In this document: piece by piece, positions 3,511-29,002 of the stretch
Layout of the letters: every line of letters begins with the position of its first letter
Numbering within the stretch: the stretch's first letter is position 1
NCBI GenBank assembly: GCA_018829485.1
Contig: JAHJTU010000086.1
Location: 1 to 33,061 of the forward strand
Source of the DNA: Nanobdellota archaeon
GTDB taxonomy: Archaea; Nanobdellota; Nanobdellia; Pacearchaeales; UBA12030
Reading direction: 5' to 3'
DNA: 33,061 nt
Notes under the pieces: model-generated
What the model saw: only the letters and a program-made list of their open reading frames with translations
Told to the model about the DNA's origin: nothing
Databases searched by the model: none
Position numbers and translations under genes: made by a program

Positions 3511-3531
3511 AATATAACAAAGAAAATAGAA

Positions 3532-8390: not shown

Positions 8391-8660
8391 ATGTTAAAAA
8401 TAAAAAAAGTGAGTGACATAATCGGCCTTAAAGTCTTTACTGACAATGGAGAAGTCTTTGGAGAAGTTGAAGAAGCTAACCTTGTAGAGAACAAAGTAGA
8501 TTCATGGAGAATAAGGATTAATAGAAACACTAACTTGGCATCCACCTTTGGAAGTGCTAAAGGTGTTATTATTCCACATAACTTTGTTAAGGCCATTGGA
8601 GATGTTGTTATAATCAACAAGACAGCAATACCTACAAGGGAACCTGAAGAAACTGAATAA
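8391..8660 (+). CDS. PRC-barrel domain protein
   Basis: 89 aa. VSDIIGLKVFTDNGEVFGEVEEANLVENKVDSWRI...GVIIPHNFVKAIGDVVII is typical of small archaeal PRC-barrel proteins. Confidence 0.75.
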   Translation: MLKIKKVSDIIGLKVFTDNGEVFGEVEEANLVENKVDSWRIRINRNTNLASTFGSAKGVIIPHNFVKAIGDVVIINKTAIPTREPEETE

Positions 8661-8685
8661 TAAAAAAGAGGATTAAAAGGCAGAA

Positions 8686-9195: not shown

Positions 9196-9250
9196 AAGAA
9201 TAAAGCCAATAAGAAAATTTAAAAAGAGATAAAACACTTTAATAAGAAAG

Positions 9251-12250: not shown

Positions 12251-14491
12251 ATGCTTTTTAAGACTGGTACAAAACTTTTTGGTTATGAAGTTGTAAAAGA
12301 AGGACAGGAAAATCTCATGTATATTAATTGCTTTGGATATGCATTAGTTCCAAGTATTTCTGATGATGCTGCAATGATGGCACGTGTTATTGACAATTTA
12401 ATTGAAAATCCTGGAACAAGCAGAGTAATACTTTCACAACAGAAGAATTATGTTTACAGCCATGAAGAAACACAAATATTAATTGAAGTTGCAAATATTT
12501 ACACTTACTTGATAAGAGAAGAGAGAATTCTTGGTATGGAGAATATAAGAAATGATAAACTTGGAATGTTGAATTACCTTACTCTTACATTATTAAGATC
12601 TGATCCAATTGGCTGTTATGTTATGGCTAATAGATTAATTAGAGAAGAAAAAACACTTTCAAGAATAAAAGATTCTGAATATTTGAGAAGATTATCAAAA
12701 ATTTATGAATTGCTTGATAAAAGCTCTTTGATAAGAAGTGTAAAAGATAGATTAGCTGGATTTAAAGTTGGTACAAGACAAATTTATTATAACTTGTTCA
12801 GGCCAGATGTATTGCCTAATTTTACATTTACAAGATTAGTTTCTGAATTACCTATGGATGCAGAGATTATTGATGAATATTCTATTGGACAAGGAGAAGA
12901 AAAAAGTGATGTTACTATTTTGAAAAAAAAGGATGAAGTAAAACATTTTTACCATATAATGCCCCCAGAATTTAAGTTAGATGAAGATTCTTTAATGCTT
13001 CTTGATATTGCAAAACAAGTTCTTTTAGAGCATAGGCCAAGAGCAGAAGAATTTCTTGATCCTGACAGAATGAGACAAGTTTTCTTTAATATTGCAAGAG
13101 ATTTGCTTACTGAACTTGCACAGAGCAAAAGAATTAATTTAGATTATAAAGAATTATTAAAGCTTGCAAGAATTTTAGTAAGATATACTGTTGGTTTTGG
13201 TTTGATAGAGATTTTATTGCTTGATGATAAATTGCAAGATATTGTTATTAATGCCCCAATTGGATTAACACAGATTTTTGTAAGACATGCTGATTATGAT
13301 GAATGTGTTACAAATATTATGCCTTCACAAGAAGATGCTGAAAGTTGGGCTGCTAAATTTAGAATGATTTCTGGAAGACCTTTAGATGAAGCACATCCTG
13401 TTTTAGATACTGAACTTACTGTGCAGAATATAAGTGCAAGAGTAAGTATTATTCAAGAGCCATTAAGTCCTTATGGATTAGCATATGCAATTAGAAGATT
13501 CAGAGAAAAGCCTTGGACTTTACCTTTGTTTGTAAAAATAGGAATGATGAGTCCTCTTGCTGCTGGCTTGTTTTCATTTTTAATTGATGGAAGCAGAACA
13601 ATGTTAATTGCAGGAACAAGAAGTTCTGGAAAAACATCTTTGCTTGGAAGTTTATTATTTGAGTTAATGCCAAAATACAGAGTAATTGTTATTGAAGATA
13701 CATTAGAATTGCCAGTTGAAGCATTAAGAAAGCTTGGTTATGATGTGCAAAGAATGAAAGTAAGAGCTGCATTACTAAAAGAAACAACAGAAGTTGCAGC
13801 TGATGAAGGTATTAGAACATCATTAAGACTTGGAGACAGTGTTTTAATTATTGGTGAAGTTAGAAGTCTAGAAGCAAAAGCATTATATGAAGCAATGAGA
13901 GTTGGTGCATTGGCAAATACAGTAGCAGGAACTATTCATGGTGCAAGTCCGTATGCTATTTTTGATAGAGTTGTAAATGATTTGCAAGTGCCAGTTACAA
14001 GTTTTAAAGCAACTGATATTATTGCAGTTGCTAATCCAATTAAATCACCAGATGGAATGCATTCTTGGAGAAGATTAGTACAAATAAGTGAAGTTAGAAA
14101 AAATTGGAAAGAAGATCCTTTAGCTGAAAAAGGATTTGTTGATTTAATGAAATACAATGCTGAGAAAGATGAACTTGAACCAACAGATGAATTAATTAAT
14201 GGGGAATCTGAAACTTTGAAATCAATTGCAGGAAATGTAAAAGAATGGGCAGGTAATTGGGATGCAATATGGGATAATATTCAATTAAGAGCAAAAATTA
14301 AAGAAACACTTGTGCGACATGGAGATAAAATTCCTGATTTGCTTGAAGCTCCATTTATTGTAAAATCAAATAATGCATTTCATAATCTTTCTGATTCTGT
14401 TTTAAGAGAACATGGAAGTTTAGACAGCAAAAGAATCTTTGAAGAATGGAATGAATGGCTCAGAAGAGAAATTAAGAGAGCGAAGGTTTAG
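12251..14491 (+). CDS. Archaeal type IV pilus/archaellum-type secretion ATPase (PilB/FlaI/VirB11 superfamily) with a long N-terminal extension
   Basis: Walker A IAGTRSSGKTSLL, Walker B/Asp box RVIVIEDTLELP, His box AGTIHGASP. About 440 aa of N-terminal domain precede the ATPase core. Confidence 0.9.
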   Translation: MLFKTGTKLFGYEVVKEGQENLMYINCFGYALVPSISDDAAMMARVIDNLIENPGTSRVILSQQKNYVYSHEETQILIEVANIYTYLIREERILGMENIRNDKLGMLNYLTLTLLRSDPIGCYVMANRLIREEKTLSRIKDSEYLRRLSKIYELLDKSSLIRSVKDRLAGFKVGTRQIYYNLFRPDVLPNFTFTRLVSELPMDAEIIDEYSIGQGEEKSDVTILKKKDEVKHFYHIMPPEFKLDEDSLMLLDIAKQVLLEHRPRAEEFLDPDRMRQVFFNIARDLLTELAQSKRINLDYKELLKLARILVRYTVGFGLIEILLLDDKLQDIVINAPIGLTQIFVRHADYDECVTNIMPSQEDAESWAAKFRMISGRPLDEAHPVLDTELTVQNISARVSIIQEPLSPYGLAYAIRRFREKPWTLPLFVKIGMMSPLAAGLFSFLIDGSRTMLIAGTRSSGKTSLLGSLLFELMPKYRVIVIEDTLELPVEALRKLGYDVQRMKVRAALLKETTEVAADEGIRTSLRLGDSVLIIGEVRSLEAKALYEAMRVGALANTVAGTIHGASPYAIFDRVVNDLQVPVTSFKATDIIAVANPIKSPDGMHSWRRLVQISEVRKNWKEDPLAEKGFVDLMKYNAEKDELEPTDELINGESETLKSIAGNVKEWAGNWDAIWDNIQLRAKIKETLVRHGDKIPDLLEAPFIVKSNNAFHNLSDSVLREHGSLDSKRIFEEWNEWLRREIKRAKV
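14454..14490 (+). repeat. Direct repeat copy 1 (3' end of the ATPase CDS)
   Basis: aatggctcagaagagaaattaagagagcgaaggttta recurs at 15821-15857 with one synonymous mismatch. Confidence 0.9.
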
Positions 14492-15257: not shown

Positions 15258-15768
15258 CCCCCTTTATAATGATATGGTTTTTTTCAATCTCTTTAATCAA
15301 TAAATTCTCTTTATCATATTTTCCTATTTTAACATTTATTCTTGCATCTATCTTTTCTAAGTCATGTTTAATTTGTTTTTTATTTGTTTCTACATATATG
15401 TCTATATCACTTTCTTTTTTAGGAATTCCTTTAGCATAAGAACCAAATAATATTGCAAGACTTATTCTTTTGTCTTCTTTTATCTTTTCTATAATGCTTC
15501 TTAATGTGGGATATTTTTTTAATATTTTTGTTAAGTTATAATTTTCTGTTGTAAAAACATAACTTTTAGCTTCTATTGTGTTTTTTAGAAAATATATCTT
15601 GTTTCTACCTTCTTCTTGATAATCTACCACATTCTCATTTGTGAGTTCTTTTAGTTTTCTGATTATAATGGTGTGGTTAGTGCCTAAGTTTTTTGCAATC
15701 AACCTAGCATGTTTTTTACTTTTTACTAATTCATTAATTATTTCTAATTTGTAATCTTTTTGTTCCAT
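15220..15768 (-). CDS. Winged-HTH fused to a minimal nucleotidyltransferase (MNT) domain
   Basis: NTase signature LFGSYAKGIPKKESDIDIYV (GSx9-10 DxD). N-terminal HTH-like KHARLIAKNLGTNHTIIIRKLKELTNENVV. ATG at 15768; the ORF-track start at 15777 is a TTG. Confidence 0.8.
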   Translation of the reverse strand: MEQKDYKLEIINELVKSKKHARLIAKNLGTNHTIIIRKLKELTNENVVDYQEEGRNKIYFLKNTIEAKSYVFTTENYNLTKILKKYPTLRSIIEKIKEDKRISLAILFGSYAKGIPKKESDIDIYVETNKKQIKHDLEKIDARINVKIGKYDKENLLIKEIEKNHIIIKGVEKYYEKNKFFE

Positions 15769-15788
15769 ATGGAACAAATATGTTCCAT
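15761..15788. promoter_or_regulatory. Operator-like palindrome plus a third half-site over the MNT start codon
   Basis: TGTTCCATATGGAACA is a perfect 16-nt palindrome (15761-15776). TGTTCCAT occurs again at 15781-15788. Both lie between the TATA (TTTAAATA, minus strand, 15791-15798) and the ATG. Confidence 0.55.
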
Positions 15789-16253: not shown

Positions 16254-18395
16254 ATGGCAAATCCAGATGTTAAGGATATTTTGAAAAGATATGAAGCAAG
16301 ACTTAACAGAGAACTTGAGTATGAAACTACAAATGTTGAGTTTACAAAAGAGTATGAGCAATTCAAGAGAGAAGCATTCAAGCCTTTAAGCAGATACGAA
16401 AAGTGGGCAAAATTTGCTTCAAAAATCCTGAAAGTAAAACCATCAGGAAAGAACTCAGAAAAATTTGACAAAGCATTAAGCATTGTTCATTCTGAAATAA
16501 CTTCTGAAGAATCTATGAGCTTGGCTGTTAATGCTTTTATTGTTACAATACTCTTGACTGTTATTGGTTTTGCAAGTTATGTTTTTCTTACAGGAGGAGA
16601 ATATCTTCCATTAATGTATTTATTTTTAGGAGTACTCTTTTCAGGATTCTTATTTTATTGGCTTTATTCTTTTCCATTAATACAAGCAAAAATATGGAGG
16701 CTTAAGTCTAGTTCTCAACTTGTACAGGCATTATTATTTATTGTCATTTACATGAAGCACACTCCTAATTTAGAACGAGCAATAAAATTTGCTTCAGATC
16801 ATTTGCAACCACCATTGTCATTAGACTTCAAGAAAATATTTTGGGATGTTGAAGTTGGAAAATATTCTACAATAAGGGAAAGTATTGACAATTACTTGGA
16901 AACTTGGAGAGACGGTAATTTAGAATTTGTTGAAGCAATGCACTTAATTGAAAGTTCATTGTATGAGCCAAAAGAGTACAAGAGAATTGAGATTTTGGAA
17001 AAAAGTTTGACTACTGTTTTGGAAGGTGTACAAGAAAAAATGCTTTCTTATACTCATGATATTAAAGCACCATTAACAAACATCTACATGTTGGGAATTG
17101 TTCTGCCAACACTTGCATTAGCATTAATACCATTAGCATCTGCATTGCTTGGTGGATTAATAACTTGGCAGCACATTATTGTGATGTTTAATATTATTGT
17201 TCCATTTTTTGTTTATTACATGACTTCTCAAGTATTGTTAACAAGACCAGCAGGTTATGGTGAAACAGAATTACTTGAATTGCATCCGGATTATGCTAAG
17301 TATAAGAGTAATACACCTAATTTAATTGCATTTTTAATTGCATTACCTTTTTTCATTTTAGGAATTTTGCCATTATTTATGCTTTTTCCTAATTTTGCTT
17401 CTAGCATTGGGTTAGCAGATTTTGATATATTCTTTTTAGGAAAGTTTTTTGATGTAAAAACAACAGCAACAGGATTAGCAGGGCCATTTGGATTAGGTGC
17501 TGTATGCTTAAGCTTATTTTTGCCATTATCAATAAGTTTGTTCTTTGCAGTAAGCTATAGCATGAAAACATCACAATTAATTAAAACAAGAAAAGAAACA
17601 AAGAAGTTAGAAGATGAATATGGTTCTGCATTATTTCAATTAGGTAATAGGTTATCTTCAGGAGTTCCAGCTGAAATGGCATTTGGAAGAGTTGCTGAAG
17701 TATTGCATGGAACACCAACAGGAAAATTCTTTTCTTTAGTTAATAATAATATTCAGAATGGAATGTCTGTTAAGGAAGCGATTTTTAACAGGCAAAGAGG
17801 AGCAATTATTTATTTTCCTTCATCATTAATTAAAACTTCAATGCATATTCTTATTGAAGGAGCAAGAAAAGGATTAAAAATAGCATCAGAAAGCATGATT
17901 AGTATTGCAGAGCATGTTAAAAGTATTCATAGAATTGAAGAAAGATTAAAAGATTTAGTTGCAGATGTTGTTGTAAGTATGAAAAGCAATATCTCCTTTT
18001 TAGCTCCTATTCTTGGTGGTGTTGTTATTGGATTAGCTGCAATGATAACAATGATAATAAATTACTTGACAACAATGATGGCGGCTTTAGAAACAGGTGA
18101 AGCAGCTAGTATTGGAGGAGCAGAAGGAATTGTTACATTATTTAATATAGAAAGCATGATTCCACCTTATTTCTTACAAATTGCAATTGGAATATATCTA
18201 GTTCAGATTATATTCATACTAACTCAAACTGTTGTTGTAATTGAAAATGGTGCTGACAAACTTACAGAAAGAAATGAAATAGCTAAAAATCTTTATAAAG
18301 GAATTTCATTTTATTTGATAATTGCATTAATTTCAATACTAGTACTAACATTGCTTGCATCATTAGTTATGACACAAATTGGGCCATTAGGATAA
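16254..18395 (+). CDS. Type IV pilus/archaellum platform membrane protein (PilC/TadC/FlaJ-like, T2SS-F domains)
   Basis: 713-aa polytopic protein. Cytoplasmic helical domains alternate with TM bundles. YGSALFQLGNRLSSGVPAEMAFGRVAEVL resembles the T2SS-F domain. It pairs with the upstream ATPase. Confidence 0.75.
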   Translation: MANPDVKDILKRYEARLNRELEYETTNVEFTKEYEQFKREAFKPLSRYEKWAKFASKILKVKPSGKNSEKFDKALSIVHSEITSEESMSLAVNAFIVTILLTVIGFASYVFLTGGEYLPLMYLFLGVLFSGFLFYWLYSFPLIQAKIWRLKSSSQLVQALLFIVIYMKHTPNLERAIKFASDHLQPPLSLDFKKIFWDVEVGKYSTIRESIDNYLETWRDGNLEFVEAMHLIESSLYEPKEYKRIEILEKSLTTVLEGVQEKMLSYTHDIKAPLTNIYMLGIVLPTLALALIPLASALLGGLITWQHIIVMFNIIVPFFVYYMTSQVLLTRPAGYGETELLELHPDYAKYKSNTPNLIAFLIALPFFILGILPLFMLFPNFASSIGLADFDIFFLGKFFDVKTTATGLAGPFGLGAVCLSLFLPLSISLFFAVSYSMKTSQLIKTRKETKKLEDEYGSALFQLGNRLSSGVPAEMAFGRVAEVLHGTPTGKFFSLVNNNIQNGMSVKEAIFNRQRGAIIYFPSSLIKTSMHILIEGARKGLKIASESMISIAEHVKSIHRIEERLKDLVADVVVSMKSNISFLAPILGGVVIGLAAMITMIINYLTTMMAALETGEAASIGGAEGIVTLFNIESMIPPYFLQIAIGIYLVQIIFILTQTVVVIENGADKLTERNEIAKNLYKGISFYLIIALISILVLTLLASLVMTQIGPLG

Positions 18396-18425: not shown

Positions 18426-19037
18426 ATGAAAACAACAAAAATCTATCTCACAAGACATGCACAAAGTATTCATAATCTTAGTGATACTTATAATAGTAAT
18501 CCTGAAAATGATAAAGGATTGAGTTCTAATGGTTTTAAGCAGGCAAAGCAACTTGCAAAAAGATTAGAAAAAGAAAAGATAGATATAATTTATAGCAGTA
18601 ATATGCCAAGATGCATTCAAACTGCAGTTGAAATTGCTAAAGTAATTAGAAAAAAAATTATTGTTAATTCAAAATTTATAGAACCAGATATGGGCAAGTA
18701 TGAATTAATGAAACAAACACAAATTGAAAGAAAATATCCTAAGATTGCAAAAATGTGGTTTGGAGATGGTGCTGAAAACTTGACATTGGGAGAATCATTT
18801 AAGACTGCTCAAAAAAGAATGCTTAAGGAAGTTGATATTCTTGCAAAAAAGCATAAAGGAAAAAGCATACTTATTATTACACACCAAGCACCAGTAAAAT
18901 TTGTTGTATGTAACTTGTTAGGTGGATTAAAATATTTTAATGTTTTTGGAATAGATAATGCTTCTTTAACTTTATTAGAAAAGAATAATAAAGATTATAA
19001 GTTAAAGTATCTTAATAATATAAGTTATTTATCATAA
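18426..19037 (+). CDS. Histidine phosphatase (phosphoglycerate mutase-like superfamily)
   Basis: IYLTRHAQSIHN (RHG-type motif with the catalytic His) and distal ILIITHQAP. Confidence 0.8.
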   Translation: MKTTKIYLTRHAQSIHNLSDTYNSNPENDKGLSSNGFKQAKQLAKRLEKEKIDIIYSSNMPRCIQTAVEIAKVIRKKIIVNSKFIEPDMGKYELMKQTQIERKYPKIAKMWFGDGAENLTLGESFKTAQKRMLKEVDILAKKHKGKSILIITHQAPVKFVVCNLLGGLKYFNVFGIDNASLTLLEKNNKDYKLKYLNNISYLS

Positions 19038-19038
19038 T

Positions 19039-19935
19039 ATGAAATCAAAAAGAAGGACAGGAAAAAGAGCACAAGTAAGACAAGAAGTTGTTTTATGGGT
19101 AATTGCTTTAATTGTTCTTGTTGTTCTTAGCATTTTTGTTTACTTTCTATATTACAATTCCCCTGCAACAATAAATAAGGAAACATGCAAGCAATCTGTT
19201 TTAATGAGAGCAGCATGGATAATGACCCCTTCTGAAGTAAGACCACCATTAAGATGCAAAACACAAGATGTTGAAATAAAAACAACTAATCAGGATGAGA
19301 TTAAAAGAGAAATTGCAAATTCAATGTATGATTGCTGGGACATGTTAGGACAAGGTAAAGTTGATTTCTTAGGACAAGATGCAACTAAATGGTTTGCAAT
19401 ACAACCAGATGAACCTGCATGCATTATATGTTCAAGAATTACTTTTGCTGATAATGTAAAAACAAAAGTCAAAAATGTAAATAATCTTACAACCTATCTT
19501 AATAATGTAAAGATTCCAGGAAAAGAGATTACATATTCACAATTTTTAATGGATGATGAGAATGCAAAATTAGAAATCCTTGATCCTTCAACTCCATCTT
19601 CTTTAACAACAAATAGGCAATATGCTGTTGTTTTTATGAATATGCGTGGAACTGATCCTTTGACAATTGCTAAAAAAGCAGCTGGTTTTGGTGGTGTTAG
19701 TGGAGTTGGTATTGGATTATTAGTGGCTAAAGTAGCTTCAAAACTTGCTGGACCAGTTGGAATTGGTATTGGAGTTGCTTATGCTGCAACTGCAACAACA
19801 ACAGGAATTATGACAATGAGAACAGCAGGAAAAAATTGTGATGGAAATATGGGTGGATGCAATGCACTAATTTTAACACCTTATGAAGCAGAGGAATTAA
19901 ATAATGTATGTAAAGATTTAAAAAGCATTCCTTAA
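19039..19935 (+). CDS. Pilin-like protein with a class III signal peptide and a C-terminal Gly/Ala-rich hydrophobic segment
   Basis: N terminus MKSKRRTGKRA/QVRQEVVLWVIALIVLVVLSIF. Its start is 1 nt after the previous stop. C-terminal GFGGVSGVGIGLLVAKVASKLAGPVGIGIGVAYAA. Confidence 0.65.
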   Translation: MKSKRRTGKRAQVRQEVVLWVIALIVLVVLSIFVYFLYYNSPATINKETCKQSVLMRAAWIMTPSEVRPPLRCKTQDVEIKTTNQDEIKREIANSMYDCWDMLGQGKVDFLGQDATKWFAIQPDEPACIICSRITFADNVKTKVKNVNNLTTYLNNVKIPGKEITYSQFLMDDENAKLEILDPSTPSSLTTNRQYAVVFMNMRGTDPLTIAKKAAGFGGVSGVGIGLLVAKVASKLAGPVGIGIGVAYAATATTTGIMTMRTAGKNCDGNMGGCNALILTPYEAEELNNVCKDLKSIP

Positions 19936-19953
19936 AAAAACATAAATAAAAAA

Positions 19954-20121
19954 ATGGCAACAAAAAAAACAAATAAAAAAGGAATAGTGCAGAGTGAAAC
20001 AGCAAAATGGATACTTGCTATTATTTTGCTTGTTGTAGTGGTAATTATTATCTTTTTCCTTAGTGGAAAAGGACAAGCACTTTTACAGAAAATTTTTGAT
20101 ATGTTAAGATTTGGTAGTTAA
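19954..20121 (+). CDS. Small (55-aa) pilin-like protein with a class III signal peptide
   Basis: Not in the ORF track. MATKKTNKKG/IVQSETAKWILAIILLVVVVIIIFFL... has Glu at +5 after the predicted cleavage site. Stop TAA at 20119-20121. Confidence 0.6.
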   Translation: MATKKTNKKGIVQSETAKWILAIILLVVVVIIIFFLSGKGQALLQKIFDMLRFGS

Positions 20122-20133
20122 GTAAAAAAGAAA

Positions 20134-20331
20134 ATGACAGAAGAAGCAACATGGGGCATTGGAGTAATTGTAAAATGGATTTTGATAATTGCAGTTATTA
20201 TAATTACTGTTATCATACTCTATAATTTCCTTGTTAAGCCAGTCATGGATACTTTTGGAAAAGAAGCAACTTTGCCTCTCTTTATGCTAATAAAAAACTT
20301 TAAAAAGAGCCCTGCTATTGATTTTATATAA
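20134..20331 (+). CDS. Small single-TM membrane protein
   Basis: 65 aa. The KWILIIAVIIITVIILY helix resembles that of the preceding gene, but there is no K-K-G/A cleavage motif. Confidence 0.5.
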   Translation: MTEEATWGIGVIVKWILIIAVIIITVIILYNFLVKPVMDTFGKEATLPLFMLIKNFKKSPAIDFI

Positions 20332-20348
20332 AGATAAAAAGAGGAAAA

Positions 20349-20672
20349 ATGAAACTAAGACCTTTGGATAAAAAAGGAATTGAAATTAGTATGAATACTC
20401 TAATTATTACAATTATTGTTGTCTTGGTGTTGCTAATTGTTGCTCTTTCTTTTACATATGGAATGAGGGGTTTGATTGATCAAATTAAAAGAGTTTTTGG
20501 AGTAACAACTGAATCACCACAAGCATTAGCAAAAGATAGATGTGCTAATTTATGTGCATTACAAAGAACAGAAGCTTATTGTAATGGGGTTGATGTTTTA
20601 GTAACAGGTAATGAAACAAGACATTTTGATTGTACTGTAGAATCTCCTTGCCCAGGTATACCATGTACTTAA
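20349..20672 (+). CDS. Pilin-like protein with a class III signal peptide and a Cys-rich C-terminal domain
   Basis: MKLRPLDKKG/IEISMNTLIITIIVVLVLLIVAL. Six Cys in the C-terminal 50 aa. Confidence 0.65.
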   Translation: MKLRPLDKKGIEISMNTLIITIIVVLVLLIVALSFTYGMRGLIDQIKRVFGVTTESPQALAKDRCANLCALQRTEAYCNGVDVLVTGNETRHFDCTVESPCPGIPCT

Positions 20673-20698
20673 CAGACTGCCCCCTTAAAAGATTAAAA

Positions 20699-20875
20699 AT
20701 GAACAAACATGGAGATGCATTTCCTATAAAAGTTATGGTTGTTATAATTCTGATTATTCTTGTTTTAGTTATTTTATTTTTATTTGCTACAGGCACATAT
20801 AGGGAAATATTTGAAACCCTTTCTAGATATTTAGGACTTGCTAAAGATGGAGCAGAAGCATTACCAGCACCATAA
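20699..20875 (+). CDS. Small (58-aa) pilin-like protein
   Basis: MNKHG/DAFPIKVMVVIILIILVLVILFLFA. Start taken at the internal ATG 20699; the longer track ORF overlaps the previous gene. Confidence 0.55.
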   Translation: MNKHGDAFPIKVMVVIILIILVLVILFLFATGTYREIFETLSRYLGLAKDGAEALPAP

Positions 20876-20932
20876 TAATATAAGAGAAAGACAATAGTTA
20901 AAATTTAAAAATTGCTTATTCTTCTCTCATAT

Positions 20933-22030
20933 ATGAATAAAAGAGGGCAGATAAGAAAGAACATAGTTGAGATTATCTTACTAGTGTTTTTTATTGGAAT
21001 TATTTTGCTTGCAGCAGTTGCAGTAACTAATATTTATTTGAATAAAGGGAATTCTGCTTCAAAAGAGCATTTCTTGAATTTATCTTCTCAAATAAAATCC
21101 TTAAACCAAGGACAAGTTAAAGGTCCTATTATTTTTTATGTTAGTTCTGATAATCCAATAAAAAGCTATGATGCTGGAGAAAAATCACCAGAAGATTGTT
21201 TTGGAAAAGCATGCTTATGTTTATGCAAGAAAACATATGGTGGAATAAAATTAGAATGCATGAATGATGTTATTTGTGAAACATTTGATAAGAATTTAAG
21301 ATTAAAAGAAAAAGGAAGTGTTGTTACAAGCGTATTTCTTAAAGGAAATGCATTTTACACTCTTTGGATAAGTAATATTGATGATGAAGTTATTGTTATT
21401 TTTAATTATCCTGATGATGTTAAGCCATATTTAGAAAAGCAAGAGCAAGAAGCATTGCAAGAGGAAGAGAAGACACAGGGTGAAATTAAGAGTTTTTATA
21501 CTGAATTTATAGGTCCTGGAATTGCTGCATCAACAAAATTACCAGCACAGAATTTAATTAATGCATATGAAAAACAAGCATTTAAATCACAAGGAACAAT
21601 AAAAGAATTAGTTGATAAGTATAGTAAAGAATATGGCGTTGAACCTTATTTAATTGCATCAATAGCTTCAATGGAAAGCACTATGGGCACAAGTAGTGGC
21701 TGTAAAAGTGTTGGGAAAAGCATATTAACTGGATGCAAATGGCCTACAAGTTGTGCTTCTGGATGCAAATGTTCTAGTTCTGATGTTTATAATGACGAAG
21801 GACAAGTAAAATGTACAGCAAATTTATTGAGAAATGCTTATGAACAAGCATCTGGAAAAGAATCTGGGTTATATTCAGGATGTAAGAAATATTCTAATGA
21901 TTTAGATAAATGGAGATGCATTTTTTGTATGTATAATAAAGGTATAGTTATGTTAAACTGTGATTATCAAAGTAATATTTTTAGTTTCTATAAACAATGG
22001 AAAAAATATTATGAAGATAAAAGTGTATAA
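20933..22030 (+). CDS. Class III signal-peptide protein carrying a C-terminal Cys-rich lytic transglycosylase (SLT/lysozyme-like) domain
   Basis: N terminus MNKRG/QIRKNIVEIILLVFFIGIILLAAVAV. C-terminal GVEPYLIASIASMESTMG...SILTGC...NDEGQVKCTANLLRNAY...FCMYNKG parallels the SLT motifs (ES / GLMQ / AYNxG). Confidence 0.65.
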   Translation: MNKRGQIRKNIVEIILLVFFIGIILLAAVAVTNIYLNKGNSASKEHFLNLSSQIKSLNQGQVKGPIIFYVSSDNPIKSYDAGEKSPEDCFGKACLCLCKKTYGGIKLECMNDVICETFDKNLRLKEKGSVVTSVFLKGNAFYTLWISNIDDEVIVIFNYPDDVKPYLEKQEQEALQEEEKTQGEIKSFYTEFIGPGIAASTKLPAQNLINAYEKQAFKSQGTIKELVDKYSKEYGVEPYLIASIASMESTMGTSSGCKSVGKSILTGCKWPTSCASGCKCSSSDVYNDEGQVKCTANLLRNAYEQASGKESGLYSGCKKYSNDLDKWRCIFCMYNKGIVMLNCDYQSNIFSFYKQWKKYYEDKSV

Positions 22031-22031
22031 A

Positions 22032-22400
22032 ATGCTAAAATCAAAAAGAGGAATAACAACATTACTTCAGGAAGAGCTGATTAAGTTAATTATTGTTGTT
22101 CTTCTGGCTGCTATGCTTTTATGGTTTGTTTATGCATCTGCAAAAGGAGAAATCTCTCAATCAGTAACTAAATCAAGAGAAATTGCAATATGGATGGATA
22201 CAGCATACAATACTGAATTTGATTCTGATGTTTTGCTTTATTTTCCTTATCAAGATGGTATTTCAATAAAAGAAGATTCAGTTGAAGTTAAAATTGGCAA
22301 TGCACCTGCAGGGAAAATATCCAGAATAATTCCAACTGAATACAAGAAAGTAGTTTCAGAAAAAGAAGTTGCTGGAACATTAGAAATAGAAGTTGTATAA
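22032..22400 (+). CDS. Pilin-like protein with a class III signal peptide
   Basis: MLKSKRG/ITTLLQEELIKLIIVVLLAAMLLWFVYA. ATG lies 1 nt after the previous stop. Confidence 0.65.
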   Translation: MLKSKRGITTLLQEELIKLIIVVLLAAMLLWFVYASAKGEISQSVTKSREIAIWMDTAYNTEFDSDVLLYFPYQDGISIKEDSVEVKIGNAPAGKISRIIPTEYKKVVSEKEVAGTLEIEVV

Positions 22401-22882
22401 TGAAGCTTTTAGAAAAATCTTCGCAAAAACAAAAAATGAATATGAATAAGAAAGCACAAATAACAGAAGGATGGATGTGGCTAATTAGAATTTTGTTTTT
22501 AATTATGCCATTATCTTTGGCAATTGCATTTTTTATGAGCAGTTTTGTTTCAAGTGTTGATGTAACTCCAATAGAAGCAACTATTCTTGCTGAAAGAGTT
22601 GACACATGCTTTGTTAATAATGGTATTTTAGATATGAATGATTTTAATACAGCAACTTTGAAAAATTGTTATAATTCAGAAGATGTTAATGCAAAATTAG
22701 AACTTAGCTTTAAAGAAGTAATACCAATAAAAACAGATAATTTTGATGTATATTGGCCATTGTGTAATTTGAAAGGAAAAGATGTTCCTTATTGCAATGA
22801 ATTTAGAGAATATGTTTTAGTTAAGGATGGTGATGAGTATTATCCTGGTTCATTGGATATTAAAATAACCCTAAGAAAGTAA
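22400..22882 (+). CDS. Pilin-like protein with a class III signal peptide
   Basis: ...MNMNKKA/QITEGWMWLIRILFLIMPLSLAIAFF. TAATG overlap with the previous gene. Met12 or Met14 are alternative starts. Confidence 0.65.
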   Translation: MKLLEKSSQKQKMNMNKKAQITEGWMWLIRILFLIMPLSLAIAFFMSSFVSSVDVTPIEATILAERVDTCFVNNGILDMNDFNTATLKNCYNSEDVNAKLELSFKEVIPIKTDNFDVYWPLCNLKGKDVPYCNEFREYVLVKDGDEYYPGSLDIKITLRK

Positions 22883-22883
22883 A

Positions 22884-23441
22884 ATGAAACTTAATAAAAA
22901 AGCAATAATTGGAAGTGGATTAGCAACTGTATGGGCAATTGTAGTTATAGCAATTATTTTAGCAATTTTCTTTCTTTTGTCTGCTGTTATTTTGCCATTC
23001 AAAAAAACATCCGAGAATGTTATTGTTACTGACAAATTTACTTTAATTGAAAATAGTGAATCTGTTATTGCATTATTAAATACACCTTTTGAAATTTCTC
23101 TTAGTGGTGAAACTGTGAAAGTTCCATTAAAGGATATCTTTATTCTTTATGATAATAATCTTGTATCAAATCTAGATATGGAAAACATAAAACCACAAAT
23201 CAAAACTTCTTTGGAAAAAGCATATGGAAGTTGTTACGCTATAAAATATGAAGGAACTAATATTTTTGAAGATAATTGGCAAACATCAGCTTATGCTGAA
23301 AAATGGCAACAGCAAGGAGAAATAACATTAACTGAAATTAATTTAATTAGTGGAAAATTCTCATTTAGAAATTTGTTTGATACTTGCATGATTAAAAATA
23401 GGAATATTGAAAATTGTAAGATGGCATGCTTAATAATCTAA
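22884..23441 (+). CDS. Pilin-like protein with a class III signal peptide
   Basis: MKLNKKA/IIGSGLATVWAIVVIAIILAIFFLL. Confidence 0.65.
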   Translation: MKLNKKAIIGSGLATVWAIVVIAIILAIFFLLSAVILPFKKTSENVIVTDKFTLIENSESVIALLNTPFEISLSGETVKVPLKDIFILYDNNLVSNLDMENIKPQIKTSLEKAYGSCYAIKYEGTNIFEDNWQTSAYAEKWQQQGEITLTEINLISGKFSFRNLFDTCMIKNRNIENCKMACLII

Positions 23442-23442
23442 A

Positions 23443-24228
23443 ATGAAAATGAAAAAGATGAATAAAAAAGCAATAAGTTTTGCAGTTGGAATGGTTCTTT
23501 TAGCAATTGCAATAACTGTTTTTGCCTTTTACATGGTATTTTTTGTAAGTAATGAAAGAATAAAAGATATTGTAACTCCTTTAGATTTAATTAATATTCA
23601 GAATGATGCAAGAGAAGATGTATTTTTTATTAAAGAATCAGCAAATTATGCAAGTCAGAGGGCAGTATATAGTGTTTTAAATGAAATTCCAATGAAATCT
23701 TCATCTCCATATAAAAAATATCAAGATATAGATATATGGAATGATTGTGAACCAGACATAAAGAAAGTTGAGGAAAAATTCTTAGATGAATTTTCTCAGG
23801 AATTTTATTCTCTTATAAAATCTAGTGATAAAGATATTATTAAGAATTTGGATGGAAAATATGTTTTCTCTTTGAATAATAATATACTAAAGTTACAATC
23901 AGGACAGGAATTAGAATATCATACTTTACTTGAAATTCATGCTGTGTATAAGACAAGTGTTTCTTTTGAAAAAGAATTGCCATTTTCTCTAAATATCCTT
24001 TCTGATATTCATACAAGAAGCAAAAATGCAGTAAATACATGCAAAGATGATTTTGATTGTATTACAGAAAAAATGAATTCTGATGATCTTGATGATTTTG
24101 ATTTTGAATTTACAAAAAATGGAGATTATATTATATTTACAGCAAGAACAAAAGACAGATTCTTTTTTAATGATGGCACTTTAAAGTATGATAAAATTTC
24201 ATTTGATTATGCTATTTCTCTAACATAA
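23443..24228 (+). CDS. Pilin-like protein with a class III signal peptide (261 aa)
   Basis: MKMKKMNKKA/ISFAVGMVLLAIAITVFAFYMVFF. Last gene of the co-directional, tightly packed cluster. Confidence 0.65.
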   Translation: MKMKKMNKKAISFAVGMVLLAIAITVFAFYMVFFVSNERIKDIVTPLDLINIQNDAREDVFFIKESANYASQRAVYSVLNEIPMKSSSPYKKYQDIDIWNDCEPDIKKVEEKFLDEFSQEFYSLIKSSDKDIIKNLDGKYVFSLNNNILKLQSGQELEYHTLLEIHAVYKTSVSFEKELPFSLNILSDIHTRSKNAVNTCKDDFDCITEKMNSDDLDDFDFEFTKNGDYIIFTARTKDRFFFNDGTLKYDKISFDYAISLT

Positions 24229-27567: not shown

Positions 27568-28173
27568 ATGCAAGCACAAGAAAAATTAACAAAAGAACAA
27601 TTAGAACAAATAAAAAAATTTCAGGAATTGCCTAAAGAAAAACAACAAGAAATACTTGAACAACAATGCATATTCTGCCAAATTTCTCAAGGTAAAGTTG
27701 ATACAATAAAAGTTTTTGAAGATTTTGATATGCTTGCTGTTTTAGATATAAATCCTGCATCTAAAGGACATATTCTTATTTTTCCTAAGAAACATTATCA
27801 GTTATTTTTCCAATTACCAGATAGTATAAGGAATAAGTTATTTGAAATTGCACAGAAAATTTCAATTTATCTTGTTAATATTCTTAAATGTGAAGGAATA
27901 AATCTTTATGTAGCAAATGGAGCAGCTGCAGGACAAAGAGTTCCCCATTTTGTTTTACATGTAATTCCAAGATTTGAAAATGATGGCATAAATTTTGATT
28001 GGCAATCTCAAAAAACAGATAAGAAAGAATTAGAGAAAATTGCAAAATTATTAAGAGAAAATTTAGCAAAAGAAAAAAAGCAAAAACAAGAGAAAGCAGT
28101 TCCAAAAGAACAAATTGAAAAAGAGCAGCAAAAACTTGAGAAGGAATTAAAGAAATTTAGAAGAGTGCCATAA
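27568..28173 (+). CDS. HIT-family (histidine triad) protein with K/E/Q-rich N- and C-terminal extensions
   Basis: CIFCQISQGKV...FEDFDMLAVLDINPASKGHILIFPKKH...AAGQRVPHFVLHVIPR. The triad reads H-F-V-L-H rather than HxHxH. Confidence 0.8.
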   Translation: MQAQEKLTKEQLEQIKKFQELPKEKQQEILEQQCIFCQISQGKVDTIKVFEDFDMLAVLDINPASKGHILIFPKKHYQLFFQLPDSIRNKLFEIAQKISIYLVNILKCEGINLYVANGAAAGQRVPHFVLHVIPRFENDGINFDWQSQKTDKKELEKIAKLLRENLAKEKKQKQEKAVPKEQIEKEQQKLEKELKKFRRVP

Positions 28174-29002
28174 TTATTTCAAAAACATTTCCTAAAAGTA
28201 ATGTTATTATAAAGGCAATTAAAAATGCTGGAACAAAAGGAATTCCTTGTCTGATTAATACTTTCTTCTTTTCTTTTCTTAAAAGTGCAATATCTTTTTT
28301 ACTTAATCCATCCCAAGTTGGCTTTATTTCTTTATTACCTATTTTTACTGTTTGCGCAAGCCAATCTCCCTCTGTTAATTTGTCTGATGTAATCTCTTGA
28401 ATTAAAGCAACTTTCTCAGAAATCTTTGCAATAAGGTAAAGATAATATAAGAGTATTATCAAAAATGAAAACAAAATCCAAAACCAATTTTTTAATATAA
28501 TAGCTCCAAGAACAAAAGCAAGACAAAGAAGTAGATATGGTAATGGCACTTTTTTATTTGTTCTCTTAAATTCCTTGTAAAAAGAAGTTTTGTTTTTCCA
28601 AGTATAGATAATCAAGAAGAATAAACCATAAAATGCTCCCACAATAAGCAAATTAAGAATAAAGACAAATGCTGATGGTATTAAAGATGAAATTATTAGT
28701 TTTGGTGGTTCTGCAAAAACAATTCCTAGAACTATTAGCAATTTAGCATCTCCACCAGCAAAAATTCTTGCATAATAGAATAAATGAGCAATTACAAAAA
28801 AGATAGCAAAGTAAATTACTCCAGAAACAAAGAATGAAATATCTTTTTCAAGGAAAGAAAATATTAATCTTGTAAAGAGGGCAATTGCAATAAGTGAGAA
28901 ATTTAGCCAATCTGGAATCTCTCTTTTTTTTAAATCCCATATAGAAGCAACTACTAAGCCAATCAAAATTAGTATAATTAAAAAATTGACTATCATTATC
29001 AT
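28157..29002 (-). CDS. Type IV prepilin/preflagellin peptidase (A24 aspartic peptidase; PibD/FlaK/EppA-like)
   Basis: Polytopic. First Asp motif is IWDLKKREIPDW and second is FAGGDAKLLIVLG (GxGD type). C-terminal GIPFVPAF. Confidence 0.85.
   Translation of the reverse strand: MIMIVNFLIILILIGLVVASIWDLKKREIPDWLNFSLIAIALFTRLIFSFLEKDISFFVSGVIYFAIFFVIAHLFYYARIFAGGDAKLLIVLGIVFAEPPKLIISSLIPSAFVFILNLLIVGAFYGLFFLIIYTWKNKTSFYKEFKRTNKKVPLPYLLLCLAFVLGAIILKNWFWILFSFLIILLYYLYLIAKISEKVALIQEITSDKLTEGDWLAQTVKIGNKEIKPTWDGLSKKDIALLRKEKKKVLIRQGIPFVPAFLIAFIITLLLGNVFEIIMALF

What the first reader, a model, noticed from the sequence alone, without database searches (positions are those of the whole stretch)
20933..22030. 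Prepilin-type protein carrying a Cys-rich lytic-transglycosylase-like domain inside the pilus operon
The N terminus is a class III signal peptide (MNKRG/QIRKNIVEIILLVFFIGIILLAAVAV). The C-terminal 130 aa show the order of SLT family motifs: GVEPYLIASIASMES (catalytic Glu-Ser), then SILTGC in place of GLMQ, NDEGQVKCTANLLRNAY, and FCMYNKG (AYNxG-like). About 14 cysteines are interspersed. Bacterial secretion, pilus and flagellar systems carry dedicated murein lytic transglycosylases (VirB1 and FlgJ types). An archaeon has no murein of its own. A pilus-delivered or pilus-anchored glycan-cleaving module would therefore most plausibly act on another cell, such as a bacterial or pseudomurein-containing host or prey. 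A fusion to a prepilin N terminus is not something I recognise as described.
Basis: partly seen in the sequence, partly recalled or inferred. Interest (0 to 1): 0.72.

Follow-up and report, generated by a model that had tools for sequence, protein, structure and literature searches.

The report
Archaeal pilin fused to lysozyme-like enzyme
A tiny symbiotic archaeon (Nanoarchaeota, DPANN) encodes in its pilus gene cluster a pilin-like surface protein ending in a divergent, cysteine-rich lysozyme-type domain; related archaea put other bacterial-cell-wall-cutting modules on the same pilin scaffold, so these archaea may use pili to attach to or attack bacteria.

Summary
Window 20933-22030 (+) is a 365-aa ORF with three parts: a class III (prepilin) leader MNKRG|Q plus a hydrophobic helix, a Cys-rich pilin-like module (res 1-160), and a C-terminal domain (res ~195-365).

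With 47 homologues the C-terminal domain folds at pLDDT 97. Its structural matches are all lysozyme-like: g-type lysozyme (TM 0.64), MltC, MltE, Slt and Tse3. A profile-profile comparison with genuine Pfam SLT domains gives 91% probability and E 1e-6. The Glu of the E-S motif (E248) is invariant in 47/47 homologues.

The gene is the sixth of ten consecutive prepilin-like genes. These lie downstream of a PilC-like protein and a T2SSE ATPase, and a PibD-like peptidase is in the window.

- The same pilin module carries canonical SLT, GH73 glucosaminidase, Amidase_2, VanY/M15 or 3D domains in other DPANN archaea.
- Syntenic operons also encode prepilin-M23 and prepilin-YkuD fusions.

The Cys-rich domain recurs in large DPANN proteins together with NlpC/P60, amidase, M23 and PG-binding domains, so the likely substrate is bacterial murein.

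Large murein lytic-transglycosylase-like proteins in DPANN archaea, and modular pilins in bacteria, are both published. I found no description of an archaeal prepilin fused to a peptidoglycan hydrolase. Enzyme activity, incorporation into a pilus and the target cell are inferred, not shown.

The parts
20933..22030 (+). Whole gene: 365-aa modular prepilin-like protein with a lysozyme-like C-terminal domain (NCBI: hypothetical protein KJ767_03595, Nanoarchaeota archaeon MAG)
20933..20947 (+). Predicted class III (prepilin) leader peptide MNKRG, with cleavage after Gly5
   Evidence: [KR][KR][GA] leader in nearly all of about 92 family representatives. The family profile aligns with the leader and alpha1 helix of bacterial type IV pilins.
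20948..21031 (+). Hydrophobic N-terminal helix (res 6-33, QIRKNIVEIILLVFFIGIILLAAVAVTN), the pilin alpha1 / membrane anchor
   Evidence: Kyte-Doolittle maximum of 3.2 at residues 11-32. Helix 4-55 in the low-confidence full-length model.
20933..21412 (+). Pilin-like carrier module (res 1-160): leader, alpha1 helix and a beta-rich domain with a six-Cys motif (C89, C94, C96, C98, C109, C115)
   Evidence: Separate family of about 92 representatives in the exhaustive HMMER search. Six Cys positions are invariant or near-invariant. Beta strands at 62-157 in the model.
21413..21547 (+). Glu/Lys-rich linker (res 161-205), no Cys, low model confidence
21548..22027 (+). Cys-rich lysozyme-like (GH23/SLT-superfamily) domain. 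The HMM envelope is res 195-362 and it contains 10 conserved Cys.
   Evidence: AF2 pLDDT 97.3, pTM 0.92. Foldseek against PDB and BFVD. hhalign against SLT. hmmsearch against PDB.
21674..21676 (+). Codon of Glu248, the predicted catalytic acid (E-S motif)
   Evidence: Invariant in 47/47 homologues. Aligned with the catalytic Glu region of g-type lysozymes and MltC.
19039..24228 (+). Cluster of ten consecutive prepilin-like genes (298, 55, 65, 107, 58, 365, 122, 148, 185 and 261 aa)
   Evidence: N termini listed. Gene order conserved in L001 and L006.
16254..18395 (+). PilC/T2SSF-like polytopic membrane protein (713 aa, about 8 hydrophobic segments)
   Evidence: Pfam T2SSF E 0.0017, below cut-off. 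TM count. A 714-aa counterpart sits at the same position in L006.
12251..14491 (+). Type IV pilus / T2SSE-family assembly ATPase (746 aa)
   Evidence: Pfam T2SSE 53 bits, above cut-off
28157..29002 (-). PibD/FlaK-like prepilin peptidase (Peptidase_A24) with WDLKKREIPD and AGGDAK aspartate motifs

Best explanation
The gene encodes a modular type-IV-pilin-like protein of a Nanoarchaeota (DPANN) archaeon.

Proposed mechanism:
1. The class III leader (MNKRG) is removed by the PibD-like peptidase encoded 6 kb downstream. This step is inferred.
2. The hydrophobic alpha1 helix and the small Cys-rich beta domain act as a pilin 'carrier'. The carrier is either built into the type IV pilus-like filament specified by the surrounding operon, most plausibly as a low-abundance or tip subunit, or held at the membrane or filament base. 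This step is inferred.
3. A Glu/Lys-rich linker presents a disulfide-stabilised, divergent GH23/SLT-superfamily (lysozyme-like) domain. The fold is shown at the level of prediction and profile comparison.
4. The invariant Glu248 cleaves the MurNAc-GlcNAc glycan of bacterial peptidoglycan, either as a lytic transglycosylase or as a muramidase. Activity and reaction type are inferred.
5. The archaeon is not expected to have murein of its own. The enzyme would therefore act on the wall of a neighbouring bacterium (host, prey or competitor), helping attachment, wall penetration or release of wall and cell material. This step is inferred.

The protein is one member of a wider DPANN toolkit in which the same pilin carrier bears interchangeable peptidoglycan-hydrolase cargo.
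For: C-terminal domain fold:
- AF2 with 47 homologues gives pLDDT 97.3 and pTM 0.92.
- All top 50 PDB Foldseek hits are lysozyme-like. The cod g-type lysozyme 3gxk gives TMq 0.64 and probability 1.00. The others are MltC, MltE, Slt, MltF, Tse3, EtgA and a GH23 chitinase.
- BFVD top hits are GEWL-like, LT_GEWL, SLT or glucosaminidase proteins.
- The family profile against PDB sequences hits g-type lysozymes (E 0.005-0.19) and MltC (E 0.064) across the catalytic Glu.
- In per-member Pfam scans, 15/47 hit Glucosaminidase, 11/47 SLT and 10/47 SLT_2.
- hhalign against SLT domains that pass the Pfam cut-off gives 91.3% probability, E 9.7e-7, over 132 columns. ES aligns with ES and C-x-Y-x-G with YNG.
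- E248 is invariant and Q291 invariant; D288 is conserved at 87% and Y334 at 96%.

Substrate context:
- Full-length relatives of the Cys-rich domain also carry NLPC_P60 (9), Amidase_2 (5), M23 (3), PG_binding_1 (2), Amidase_3 and PG_binding_3.
- These relatives sit on archaeal contigs with RPA, RadA, Alba and L35Ae genes.

Pilin reading:
- The leader motif is present across the N-module family.
- PDB hits of the N-module profile are mainly type IV pilins, 6 of 9.
- Ten adjacent prepilin-like genes, a PilC-like protein, a T2SSE ATPase and an A24 peptidase are in the window.

Cargo swapping:
- The same N module is fused to Pfam-positive SLT in 8 proteins, to GH73 Glucosaminidase in 2, and to Amidase_2, VanY, M15, Lysozyme_like or 3D in others.
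- P0059 and P0060 share a near-identical carrier but carry different cargo.
- The positional orthologue in the syntenic Woesearchaeota/Nanoarchaeota locus L006 is a prepilin-SLT protein. That operon also has a prepilin-M23 gene.
- L003 has a prepilin-YkuD gene directly upstream of a Sec-signal protein with the Cys-rich domain.
Against: - No biochemical data exist.
- The window protein alone fails the Pfam SLT and SLT_2 gathering scores (12-18 bits against 21-24).
- No Foldseek E-value is below 1e-3.
- The GLMQ motif is replaced by LTGC.
- The pilin fold of the N module rests on a low-confidence model (pLDDT about 50-70) and on weak PDB E-values (0.04-0.3).
- Class III signal peptides also occur on non-filament surface proteins, so pilus incorporation is unproven.
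- In orthologues P0002, P0003 and L008 the called start gives only 'MG|F', without a basic residue before the Gly.
- No bacterial partner of any DPANN archaeon is known to me (own knowledge).
- The rest of the genome could not be checked for murein synthesis genes.
Confidence: 0.62

Rival explanations
1. The protein is a surface-anchored enzyme, not a pilus subunit. The class III leader is used only for export and membrane or S-layer anchoring, as in the Sulfolobus sugar-binding proteins of the 'bindosome'. The lysozyme-like domain works at the cell surface of the archaeon against contacting bacteria.
For: No evidence places it in a filament. The bulky 200-aa cargo and long linker would be hard to fit in a filament body. 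Non-pilin class III signal-peptide proteins are established in Crenarchaeota (own knowledge). In L003 the Cys-rich domain protein has an ordinary Sec-type signal peptide, so pilus attachment is not needed for the domain's function.
Against: The N module is more than a leader. It is a conserved 160-aa unit of alpha1 helix plus beta domain, and it also occurs alone as 145-200-aa proteins. The gene holds a conserved position among nine other prepilin-like genes. Bacterial modular pilins with larger cargo are displayed on pili (PMC8179133).
Confidence: 0.25
2. The C-terminal domain cleaves or binds a glycan other than bacterial murein. Candidates are chitin or chito-oligosaccharides (GH23 includes chitinases), pseudomurein of methanogen hosts, or archaeal surface glycans.
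For: A GH23 chitinase (3w6e) is among the fold hits. The substrate-contacting GLMQ motif is altered to LTGC. All cultivated DPANN archaea have archaeal hosts (own knowledge).
Against: Companion domains on the same proteins or carrier are specific for MurNAc-peptide and D-amino-acid bonds of murein: Amidase_2/3, NlpC/P60, M23, VanY, YkuD and PG_binding_1. Pseudomurein lacks MurNAc and D-amino acids and has beta-1,3 links that lysozymes do not cut (established knowledge).
Confidence: 0.1
3. The domain is a catalytically dead or weak peptidoglycan-binding adhesin. It uses the lysozyme-like groove only to recognise a bacterial wall, giving the pilus host specificity.
For: Motif II is altered. Modular pilins commonly carry lectin or adhesin modules.
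Against: The Glu of the E-S motif is invariant in 47/47 homologues, and Q291 and Y334 are invariant or near-invariant. That pattern is expected for an active site under selection.
Confidence: 0.08
4. The protein is a housekeeping 'space-maker' like VirB1, BfpH or EtgA. It would open the producer's own wall so that the pilus can be assembled.
For: Dedicated lytic transglycosylases are encoded in bacterial T4P, T4SS and T3SS operons (established knowledge). EtgA is among the sequence and fold hits.
Against: The contig is archaeal: RadA, RPA, DUF2240 and an ERCC4/Hef-type nuclease. No murein genes are in the 33 kb window. The cargo diversity (amidase, M23, VanY, YkuD, GH73) and the giant multi-hydrolase relatives look like an arsenal rather than a single assembly factor.
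Confidence: 0.03

Closest known systems
Family-1 lytic transglycosylases (Slt70, MltC, MltE; Pfam SLT PF01464) and goose-type lysozymes (CAZy GH23)
   Same: Same all-alpha lysozyme-like fold (TMq up to 0.64). The catalytic Glu sits in an E-S motif at the end of a helix. Positional counterparts exist for all four family-1 motifs. Profile-profile E is 1e-6.
   Different: Fails the Pfam gathering score. GLMQ is replaced by LTGC(G)W, NPxxN by SDxxQ, and AYNxG by C-x-Y-x-G. Ten conserved cysteines suggest about five disulfides. The domain sits in an archaeon and on a pilin scaffold.
[quoted passage not shown] 2021, fam00969; Vigneron et al. 2022)
   Same: Same organisms (DPANN) and the same proposed role in binding or degrading bacterial walls. 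The Cys-rich domain of the window protein occurs in DPANN proteins of 450-2177 aa together with other peptidoglycan hydrolase domains.
   Different: The window protein is small (365 aa), has a class III prepilin leader and pilin-like module, and lies inside the pilus operon. The papers read here do not mention pilin fusion. I could not verify that fam00969 is the same domain family.
Bacterial modular type IV pilins (e.g. Streptococcus sanguinis PilB, a pilin plus vWA module; Raynaud et al. 2021)
   Same: The architecture is a pilin carrier module, a short linker and a functional effector module. Different effectors are grafted on one carrier.
   Different: The system is archaeal and the leader is archaeal-type. 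The effector is a peptidoglycan glycosidase. Such cargo is not mentioned in the passages of that paper I read, which name lectin, vWA and peptidase modules.
Specialised lytic transglycosylases of bacterial envelope-spanning machines (VirB1, BfpH, PilT of R64, EtgA, FlgJ)
   Same: An SLT-superfamily enzyme encoded within the operon of a filament or secretion machine. EtgA is among the hits.
   Different: Those enzymes are Sec-exported periplasmic proteins that open the producer's own sacculus. Here the producer is an archaeon without an expected sacculus, and the enzyme is fused to a pilin.
Archaeal peptidoglycan hydrolases that kill bacteria (Woldo and Danwoldo of Halogranum salarium; Strock et al. 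2025) and the horizontally acquired GH25 lysozyme of Aciduliprofundum (Metcalf et al. 2014)
   Same: Archaea-encoded, exported enzymes acting on bacterial murein.
   Different: Those are soluble Sec/Tat-secreted proteins with peptidoglycan-binding domains from Euryarchaeota. That survey considered only Sec and Tat signal peptides, so class III-led hydrolases like this one would count as 'no signal peptide'.
Sulfolobus 'bindosome' sugar-binding proteins with class III signal peptides
   Same: A functional, non-structural domain exported through a prepilin-type leader and processed by PibD (own knowledge).
   Different: Those are solute-binding proteins, not enzymes against another cell. They have no conserved pilin beta module.

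Membership tests
Lysozyme-like superfamily / GH23 (SLT and goose-type lysozyme) | All-alpha lysozyme-like fold with a substrate groove between two lobes | tested here: met
   AF2 pLDDT 97.3. The top 50 PDB hits and the named hits among the top 50 BFVD hits are of this superfamily, best TMq 0.64 and probability 1.00. All Foldseek E-values are 0.002 or higher.
Lysozyme-like superfamily / GH23 (SLT and goose-type lysozyme) | Catalytic Glu at the C-terminal end of the helix preceding the groove (E-S motif) | tested here: met
   E248-S249. The Glu is invariant in 47/47 and the Ser conserved at 87%. It aligns with the catalytic Glu region of g-type lysozymes, MltC and Pfam-positive SLT domains.
Pfam SLT (PF01464) / SLT_2 (PF13406) | Score at or above the curated gathering threshold | tested here: not met
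   SLT 12.4 bits against a 21.3 cut-off, and SLT_2 18 bits against 24.3. The isolated domain gives 15.4 and 19.7 bits. It is therefore a divergent relative, not a member as the models are drawn.
Family-1 lytic transglycosylases | Motifs GLMQ, (D/N)PxxN(I/V)xxG and AYNxG after the E-S motif | tested here: inconclusive
   Positional counterparts exist (LTGC, SDxxQxxCTA, CxYxG), and Leu265 and Tyr334 are retained. The Gln of GLMQ and the Asn of AYNxG are not conserved.
Family-1 lytic transglycosylases | Non-hydrolytic cleavage giving 1,6-anhydro-MurNAc | not testable with these tools
   Needs muropeptide analysis. Only one further acidic position (D288, 87%) is conserved, which does not discriminate between a lytic transglycosylase and a lysozyme.
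Archaeal type IV pilins / class III signal peptide proteins | Short basic leader ending in Gly/Ala, followed by about 20 hydrophobic residues | tested here: met
   MNKRG|QIRKNIVEIILLVFFIGIILLAAVAV. The same pattern is present in nearly all of about 92 family representatives and in nine neighbouring genes. In the P0002, P0003 and L008 lineage the called start leaves only 'MG'.
Archaeal type IV pilins / class III signal peptide proteins | Cognate machinery: prepilin peptidase, assembly ATPase and PilC-like platform protein | tested here: met
   Peptidase_A24 at 47.7 bits with both Asp motifs, T2SSE at 53 bits, and a PilC-like protein with only a weak T2SSF hit (E 0.0017) plus 8 hydrophobic segments.
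Archaeal type IV pilins / class III signal peptide proteins | Pilin fold: a long alpha1 helix packed on a beta sheet | tested here: inconclusive
   The full-length model shows helix 4-55 and then strands 62-157, but pLDDT is about 50-70. The N-module profile hits bacterial type IV pilins only over the leader and alpha1, at E 0.04-0.3.
Archaeal type IV pilins / class III signal peptide proteins | Cleavage by PibD/FlaK and polymerisation into a filament | not testable with these tools
   Requires biochemistry, proteomics or microscopy.
Modular pilins (carrier plus effector) | N-terminal pilin module joined by a linker to an independently occurring functional module | tested here: met
   The two modules hit different protein sets in the exhaustive search. 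The carrier occurs alone and with SLT, GH73, amidase, VanY or 3D cargo. The Cys-rich domain occurs without the carrier in about 55 proteins.
Operon-encoded 'space-making' lytic transglycosylases (VirB1/BfpH/EtgA type) | Acts on the producer's own murein sacculus | not testable with these tools
   The contig is archaeal and no mur genes are in the window. The whole genome is not available here.

The most novel reading that the evidence does not exclude
Many Nanoarchaeota, Woesearchaeota and Pacearchaeota build a 'lytic pilus'. This would be a type IV pilus-like filament whose minor pilins form an interchangeable arsenal of murein hydrolases: SLT, Cys-rich GH23-like, GH73, M23, YkuD, Amidase_2 and VanY. 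The filament would dock onto and locally dissolve the wall of bacterial cells. That would be direct molecular evidence, and a usable marker, for cross-domain (archaeon-on-bacterium) episymbiosis or predation by DPANN archaea.
Probability: 0.4. Interest if true: 0.85.

Novelty: new variant of a known kind. Interest (0 to 1): 0.66.

Why it matters
Whether some DPANN archaea live on bacteria rather than on other archaea is an open question. So far it rests on the mere presence of murein-hydrolase-like genes.

This locus ties such enzymes physically to the cell-contact organelle. They are fused to a pilin carrier, sit at a conserved position in the pilus operon, and have cargo that has been swapped repeatedly between lineages.

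That gives a concrete, testable mechanism of contact-dependent wall breaching. It also gives a genomic signature (prepilin leader plus peptidoglycan hydrolase domain) for picking out DPANN lineages likely to target bacteria. A further practical point is that surveys of archaeal peptidoglycan hydrolases which consider only Sec and Tat signals will miss these proteins.

The analysis also defines a sizeable, unannotated, disulfide-rich branch of the GH23/SLT superfamily, with at least 53 clusters at 50% identity at E below 1e-10. No Pfam or NCBIfam model scanned here reaches its curated cut-off on the window protein.

Tried and rejected
- Single-sequence Pfam and PDB searches gave only sub-threshold hits. 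They served as a lead, not as evidence.
- AF2 of the full-length protein with 3 sequences was poor (pLDDT 51.7). It was used only for gross secondary structure.
- The search for homologous proteins with the 47-sequence domain alignment returned a single hit and added nothing.
- An NCBIfam scan of the protein, eight neighbouring prepilin-like gene products and the PilC-like protein gave no meaningful family.
- PDB phmmer of the PilC-like protein found nothing.
- I tested whether the 65-aa ORF at 20134-20331 is a remnant of the prepilin-M23 gene found at that position in L006. BLASTP found no similarity, so this was rejected.
- I considered in-situ divergence of a canonical SLT domain against module replacement. 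The N modules of the window protein and its positional orthologue are 33% identical (E 3e-9). The C domains show no pairwise similarity, yet the window C domain is 35-42% identical to domains in unrelated large DPANN proteins. Replacement is favoured.
- The own-wall 'space-maker' role and a pseudomurein target were considered and ranked low (see rivals).
- A bacterial (CPR) origin of the contig was rejected because of RadA, RPA/DUF2240 and the ERCC4 nuclease.
Full report
**1. The observation**

Window 20933-22030 (+) is a 365-aa ORF starting at an ATG. It is recorded in NCBI as 'hypothetical protein KJ767_03595 [Nanoarchaeota archaeon]'. The window has about 30% G+C.

The contig is archaeal. 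It encodes RadA, RPA with DUF2240, an ERCC4/Hef nuclease and helicase, and Sua5.

The N terminus is MNKRG|QIRKNIVEIILLVFFIGIILLAAVAV. The most hydrophobic 19-mers begin at residues 11-14.

The protein has 16 cysteines rather than 'about 14': 6 in the N-terminal module and 10 in the C-terminal domain.

**2. Two separable modules**

Only two close homologues (41-42% identity) were found by the word-indexed search. An exhaustive HMMER search of 1.84 billion representatives with that alignment gave 191 hits at E of 1e-3 or better. These split cleanly into two sets:

- About 60 proteins, mostly 450-2177 aa, match only residues ~195-365.
- About 90 proteins of 116-491 aa match only residues 1-~160.

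The combination of this N module with this C domain occurs only in the window protein and its close orthologues: P0002, P0003, and L007 and L008 from Nanoarchaeota MAGs UBA10106 and B19T1B11.

**3. The C-terminal domain is lysozyme-like**

Single-sequence searches were sub-threshold but pointed one way: SLT_2 E 0.0018, SLT E 0.12, g-type lysozymes E about 1.

Family-level evidence came from a 47-sequence alignment of the domain (A2):

- The profile hits g-type lysozymes (3gxk E 0.005), MltC (E 0.064), a phage glucosaminidase and EtgA, always across the helix and Glu of the active site.
- Individually, 15/47 members hit Pfam Glucosaminidase (best E 3.4e-5), 11/47 SLT and 10/47 SLT_2. All three families belong to the lysozyme-like clan.
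- AlphaFold2 with this alignment gives an all-helical model with mean pLDDT 97.3 and pTM 0.92.
- In Foldseek against the PDB, every one of the top 50 matches is a lysozyme-like enzyme. Cod, salmon, goose, swan and ostrich g-type lysozymes give TMq 0.51-0.64 and probability 0.99-1.00. The rest are MltC, MltE, Slt, MltF, LtgA, the T6SS muramidase Tse3, EtgA, T7 gp16, a GH23 chitinase and a GH73 glucosaminidase.
- BFVD gives GEWL-like, LT_GEWL, SLT and glucosaminidase phage proteins.
- No Foldseek E-value is below 1e-3. The argument rests on the uniformity of the hits, the TM scores and the sequence-profile evidence together.
- A profile-profile comparison of A2 with SLT domains that do pass the Pfam cut-off (see section 5) gives 91.3% probability and E 9.7e-7 over 132 columns spanning the whole domain.

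In that alignment and in the MAFFT alignment, the family-1 lytic-transglycosylase motifs have positional counterparts:

| SLT motif | Counterpart here |
|---|---|
| E-S | E248-S249 |
| GLMQ | (I)LTGC, residues 264-268 |
| (D/N)PxxNIxxG | (N/S)DxxQxxCTA, residues 287-296 |
| (A)YNxG | CxYxG, residues 332-336 |

Conservation across the 47 sequences is as follows: E248 100%, Q291 100%, C317 and C329 100%, Y334 96%, W356 98%, LTGC 91-96%, D288 87%. All ten cysteines of the window domain fall on positions at least 72% conserved, so about five disulfides are likely. That fits an extracellular enzyme.

**4. What the domain keeps company with**

Forty-four full-length relatives carrying the Cys-rich domain also contain NLPC_P60 (9), Amidase_2 (5), Peptidase_M23 (3), PG_binding_1 (2), SLT (2), Amidase_3, PG_binding_3, GDSL esterases and others.

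All three such proteins whose contigs I fetched lie on archaeal contigs:

- L003 has RPA and RadA.
- L004 has RPA, with an adjacent M23 gene.
- L005 has Alba, ribosomal L35Ae and S10, and a 2177-aa protein with NlpC/P60, Amidase_3 and the Cys-rich domain.

From established biochemistry, these partner domains cut MurNAc-L-Ala, gamma-D-Glu-mDAP, D-Ala-D-Ala or cross-bridge bonds. Those bonds exist in bacterial murein but not in pseudomurein. This is the main reason to name murein as the substrate.

**5. The N-terminal module is a pilin-like carrier with swappable cargo**

Nearly all of the ~92 N-module representatives start M-x(0-8)-[KR][KR]-[GA] followed by about 20 hydrophobic residues. They share six invariant or near-invariant cysteines.

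The family profile's PDB hits are mainly bacterial type IV pilins (Geobacter PilA-N, P. aeruginosa PilA, PilE1), aligned over the leader and alpha1 helix. The E-values are weak (0.04-0.3) but coherent, with 6 of 9 hits being pilins.

The low-confidence full-length model shows a 50-residue N-terminal helix followed by beta strands, which is a pilin-like layout.

About half of the family are 145-250-aa proteins consisting of the carrier alone. Among the longer ones:

- P0010, P0013, P0023, P0027, P0029, P0058, P0060 and P0072 carry a Pfam-positive SLT domain (25-93 bits against a 21.3 cut-off).
- P0059 and P0067 carry a GH73 Glucosaminidase domain (74 bits against 30.2).
- Others carry Amidase_2 (2), SLT (2), VanY, Peptidase_M15, Lysozyme_like, a 3D domain or Hemopexin.

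P0059 and P0060 have almost identical carriers but GH73 and SLT cargo respectively. One of the SLT fusions is named 'transglycosylase SLT domain-containing protein [Nanoarchaeota archaeon]' by NCBI. Another belongs to Candidatus Pacearchaeota ex4484_26.

**6. Operon context and synteny**

In the window the gene is the sixth of ten consecutive + strand genes (19039-24228). Their products nearly all begin with a class III-type leader.

Upstream lie a histidine phosphatase, an 8-TM 713-aa protein with a weak T2SSF hit and, further up, a T2SSE ATPase. A Peptidase_A24 gene with the two aspartate motifs (WDLKKREIPD, AGGDAK) lies at 28157-29002 (-).

The order of pilin cluster, RPA, RadA and Sua5 is conserved in L001.

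L006 comes from GCA_964361585.1, which is labelled Nanoarchaeota in one source and Candidatus Woesearchaeota in another. It has the same overall order:

- T2SSE, a 714-aa membrane protein, then 295-aa and 50-aa genes;
- a prepilin-M23 gene (337 aa, MLDKRG|VEL...);
- 100-aa and 61-aa genes;
- a prepilin-SLT gene (347 aa, P0027);
- genes of 124, 163-186, 180 and 271 aa;
- RPA, RadA, HIT and an A24 peptidase.

The window gene is therefore the positional counterpart of a canonical prepilin-SLT gene. Their N modules are 33% identical (E 3e-9), while the C domains show no pairwise similarity. The window C domain is nevertheless 35-42% identical to domains in large DPANN hydrolases. This favours cargo replacement over in-situ divergence.

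In L003, another DPANN pilin cluster contains a carrier-only family member. It ends with a prepilin-YkuD protein (371 aa, MNKKG|QFF...) directly followed by a Sec-signal protein bearing the Cys-rich domain, and then RPA. The pilin carrier and the Cys-rich domain are thus separate but adjacent in one lineage and fused in another.

**7. Mechanism**

Shown here, by computation:

- a lysozyme-like fold with an invariant active-site Glu;
- a class III-type leader and a conserved pilin-like carrier;
- membership of a conserved pilus gene cluster with its peptidase, ATPase and platform protein;
- recurrent association of both modules with murein-specific hydrolase domains.

Inferred:

- cleavage of the leader by the A24 peptidase;
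- display on or at a type IV pilus-like filament, most likely as a minor or tip subunit by analogy with bacterial modular pilins (PMC8179133);
- E248-dependent cleavage of the murein glycan;
- action on another, bacterial cell.

Whether the reaction is lytic transglycosylation or hydrolysis is open. The only other conserved acidic position is D288, at 87%.

**8. Comparison with what is known**

- Archaeal peptidoglycan hydrolases that kill bacteria have been demonstrated in haloarchaea. That survey scored only Sec and Tat signals (PMC12352652).
- Modular pilins are established in bacteria. The modules named in the passages I read are lectin, vWA and peptidase modules.
- Five searches of the held literature found no description of an archaeal prepilin fused to a peptidoglycan hydrolase, or of peptidoglycan hydrolases as regular members of DPANN pilus operons.
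- The Cys-rich domain does not reach the curated cut-off of any Pfam or NCBIfam model on the window protein.

I therefore rate the finding as a new variant of known kinds, not categorically new.

**9. Caveats**

- All functional statements are predictions.
- The pilin fold of the carrier is not confidently modelled.
- Class III leaders also serve non-filament proteins.
- One orthologue lineage has an atypical called start, 'MG|F'.
- The absence of murein in the producer is assumed from its archaeal identity and was not checked genome-wide.
- I did not verify that the published fam00969 is the same domain family.

Noticed in passing
L006:8399-9412 (+): In the locus syntenic with the window (GCA_964361585.1), a 337-aa protein with a class III leader (MLDKRG|VELPINKLIEIILVIVVIVLVVVLF) carries a Peptidase_M23 domain. 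It sits two genes upstream of the prepilin-SLT gene. The window has no counterpart; a 65-aa ORF (20134-20331) with no similarity lies at that position.
   Followed up: partly
L003:6889-8004 and 8001-9362 (+): Another DPANN pilin cluster ends with a prepilin-like protein carrying a YkuD (L,D-transpeptidase-type) domain. It is immediately followed by a Sec-signal 453-aa protein with the Cys-rich lysozyme-like domain, and then by RPA.
   Followed up: partly
proteins P0059 and P0060 (Logan metagenome assemblies): Two proteins have almost identical pilin-like carriers (...CFLR[SN]CICICEKRGG...KVNCDKGGVC...). One has GH73 glucosaminidase cargo and the other SLT cargo, which looks like a recent cargo swap.
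   Followed up: partly
L001:1923-1940, L002:990-1007, L008:5998-6006: In the orthologue lineage of P0002 and P0003 the called ATG start leaves a leader of only 'MG'. The codons between the upstream stop and that ATG read I-K-K-R (ATT AAA AAG AGG). A non-canonical ATT start would restore a typical basic class III leader (KKRMG|F).
   Followed up: no
window 20349-20672 (+): This 107-aa prepilin-like protein (DKKG|IEISMNTLIITIIVVLVLLIVAL) has a Cys-rich C terminus ending CPGIPCT. It is conserved at the same operon position in L001 and L002 (107 aa) and in L006 (100 aa, ending CPGITCS). It is a candidate major pilin.
   Followed up: no
window 14772-15777 (-): A HEPN-domain protein and a nucleotidyltransferase (Polbeta/NTP_transf_2, with an HTH) overlap on the minus strand. 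They form a toxin-antitoxin-like pair inserted between the pilus ATPase and the PilC-like gene.
   Followed up: no
window 18426-19037 (+): A histidine phosphatase (His_Phos_1, E 1e-41) is encoded between the PilC-like gene and the first prepilin-like gene. It ends 1 base before that gene starts (18426-19037, then 19039).
   Followed up: no
window 2443-3555 (-) and 3875-5569 (+): There is a free-standing LAGLIDADG_2 homing-endonuclease-like gene with NUMOD1/HTH. Next to it is a 564-aa fusion of a radical SAM/SPASM domain with a class I methyltransferase domain.
   Followed up: no
window 19039-19935 (+); L003:943-2845; L006:7316-8203: The first gene of the pilin cluster (about 295-320 aa) has a class III leader, conserved Cys motifs such as C(I/V)(I/V)CS, and a Gly/Ala-rich hydrophobic C-terminal segment. 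It is conserved across the DPANN pilus operons examined and has no Pfam family.
   Followed up: no
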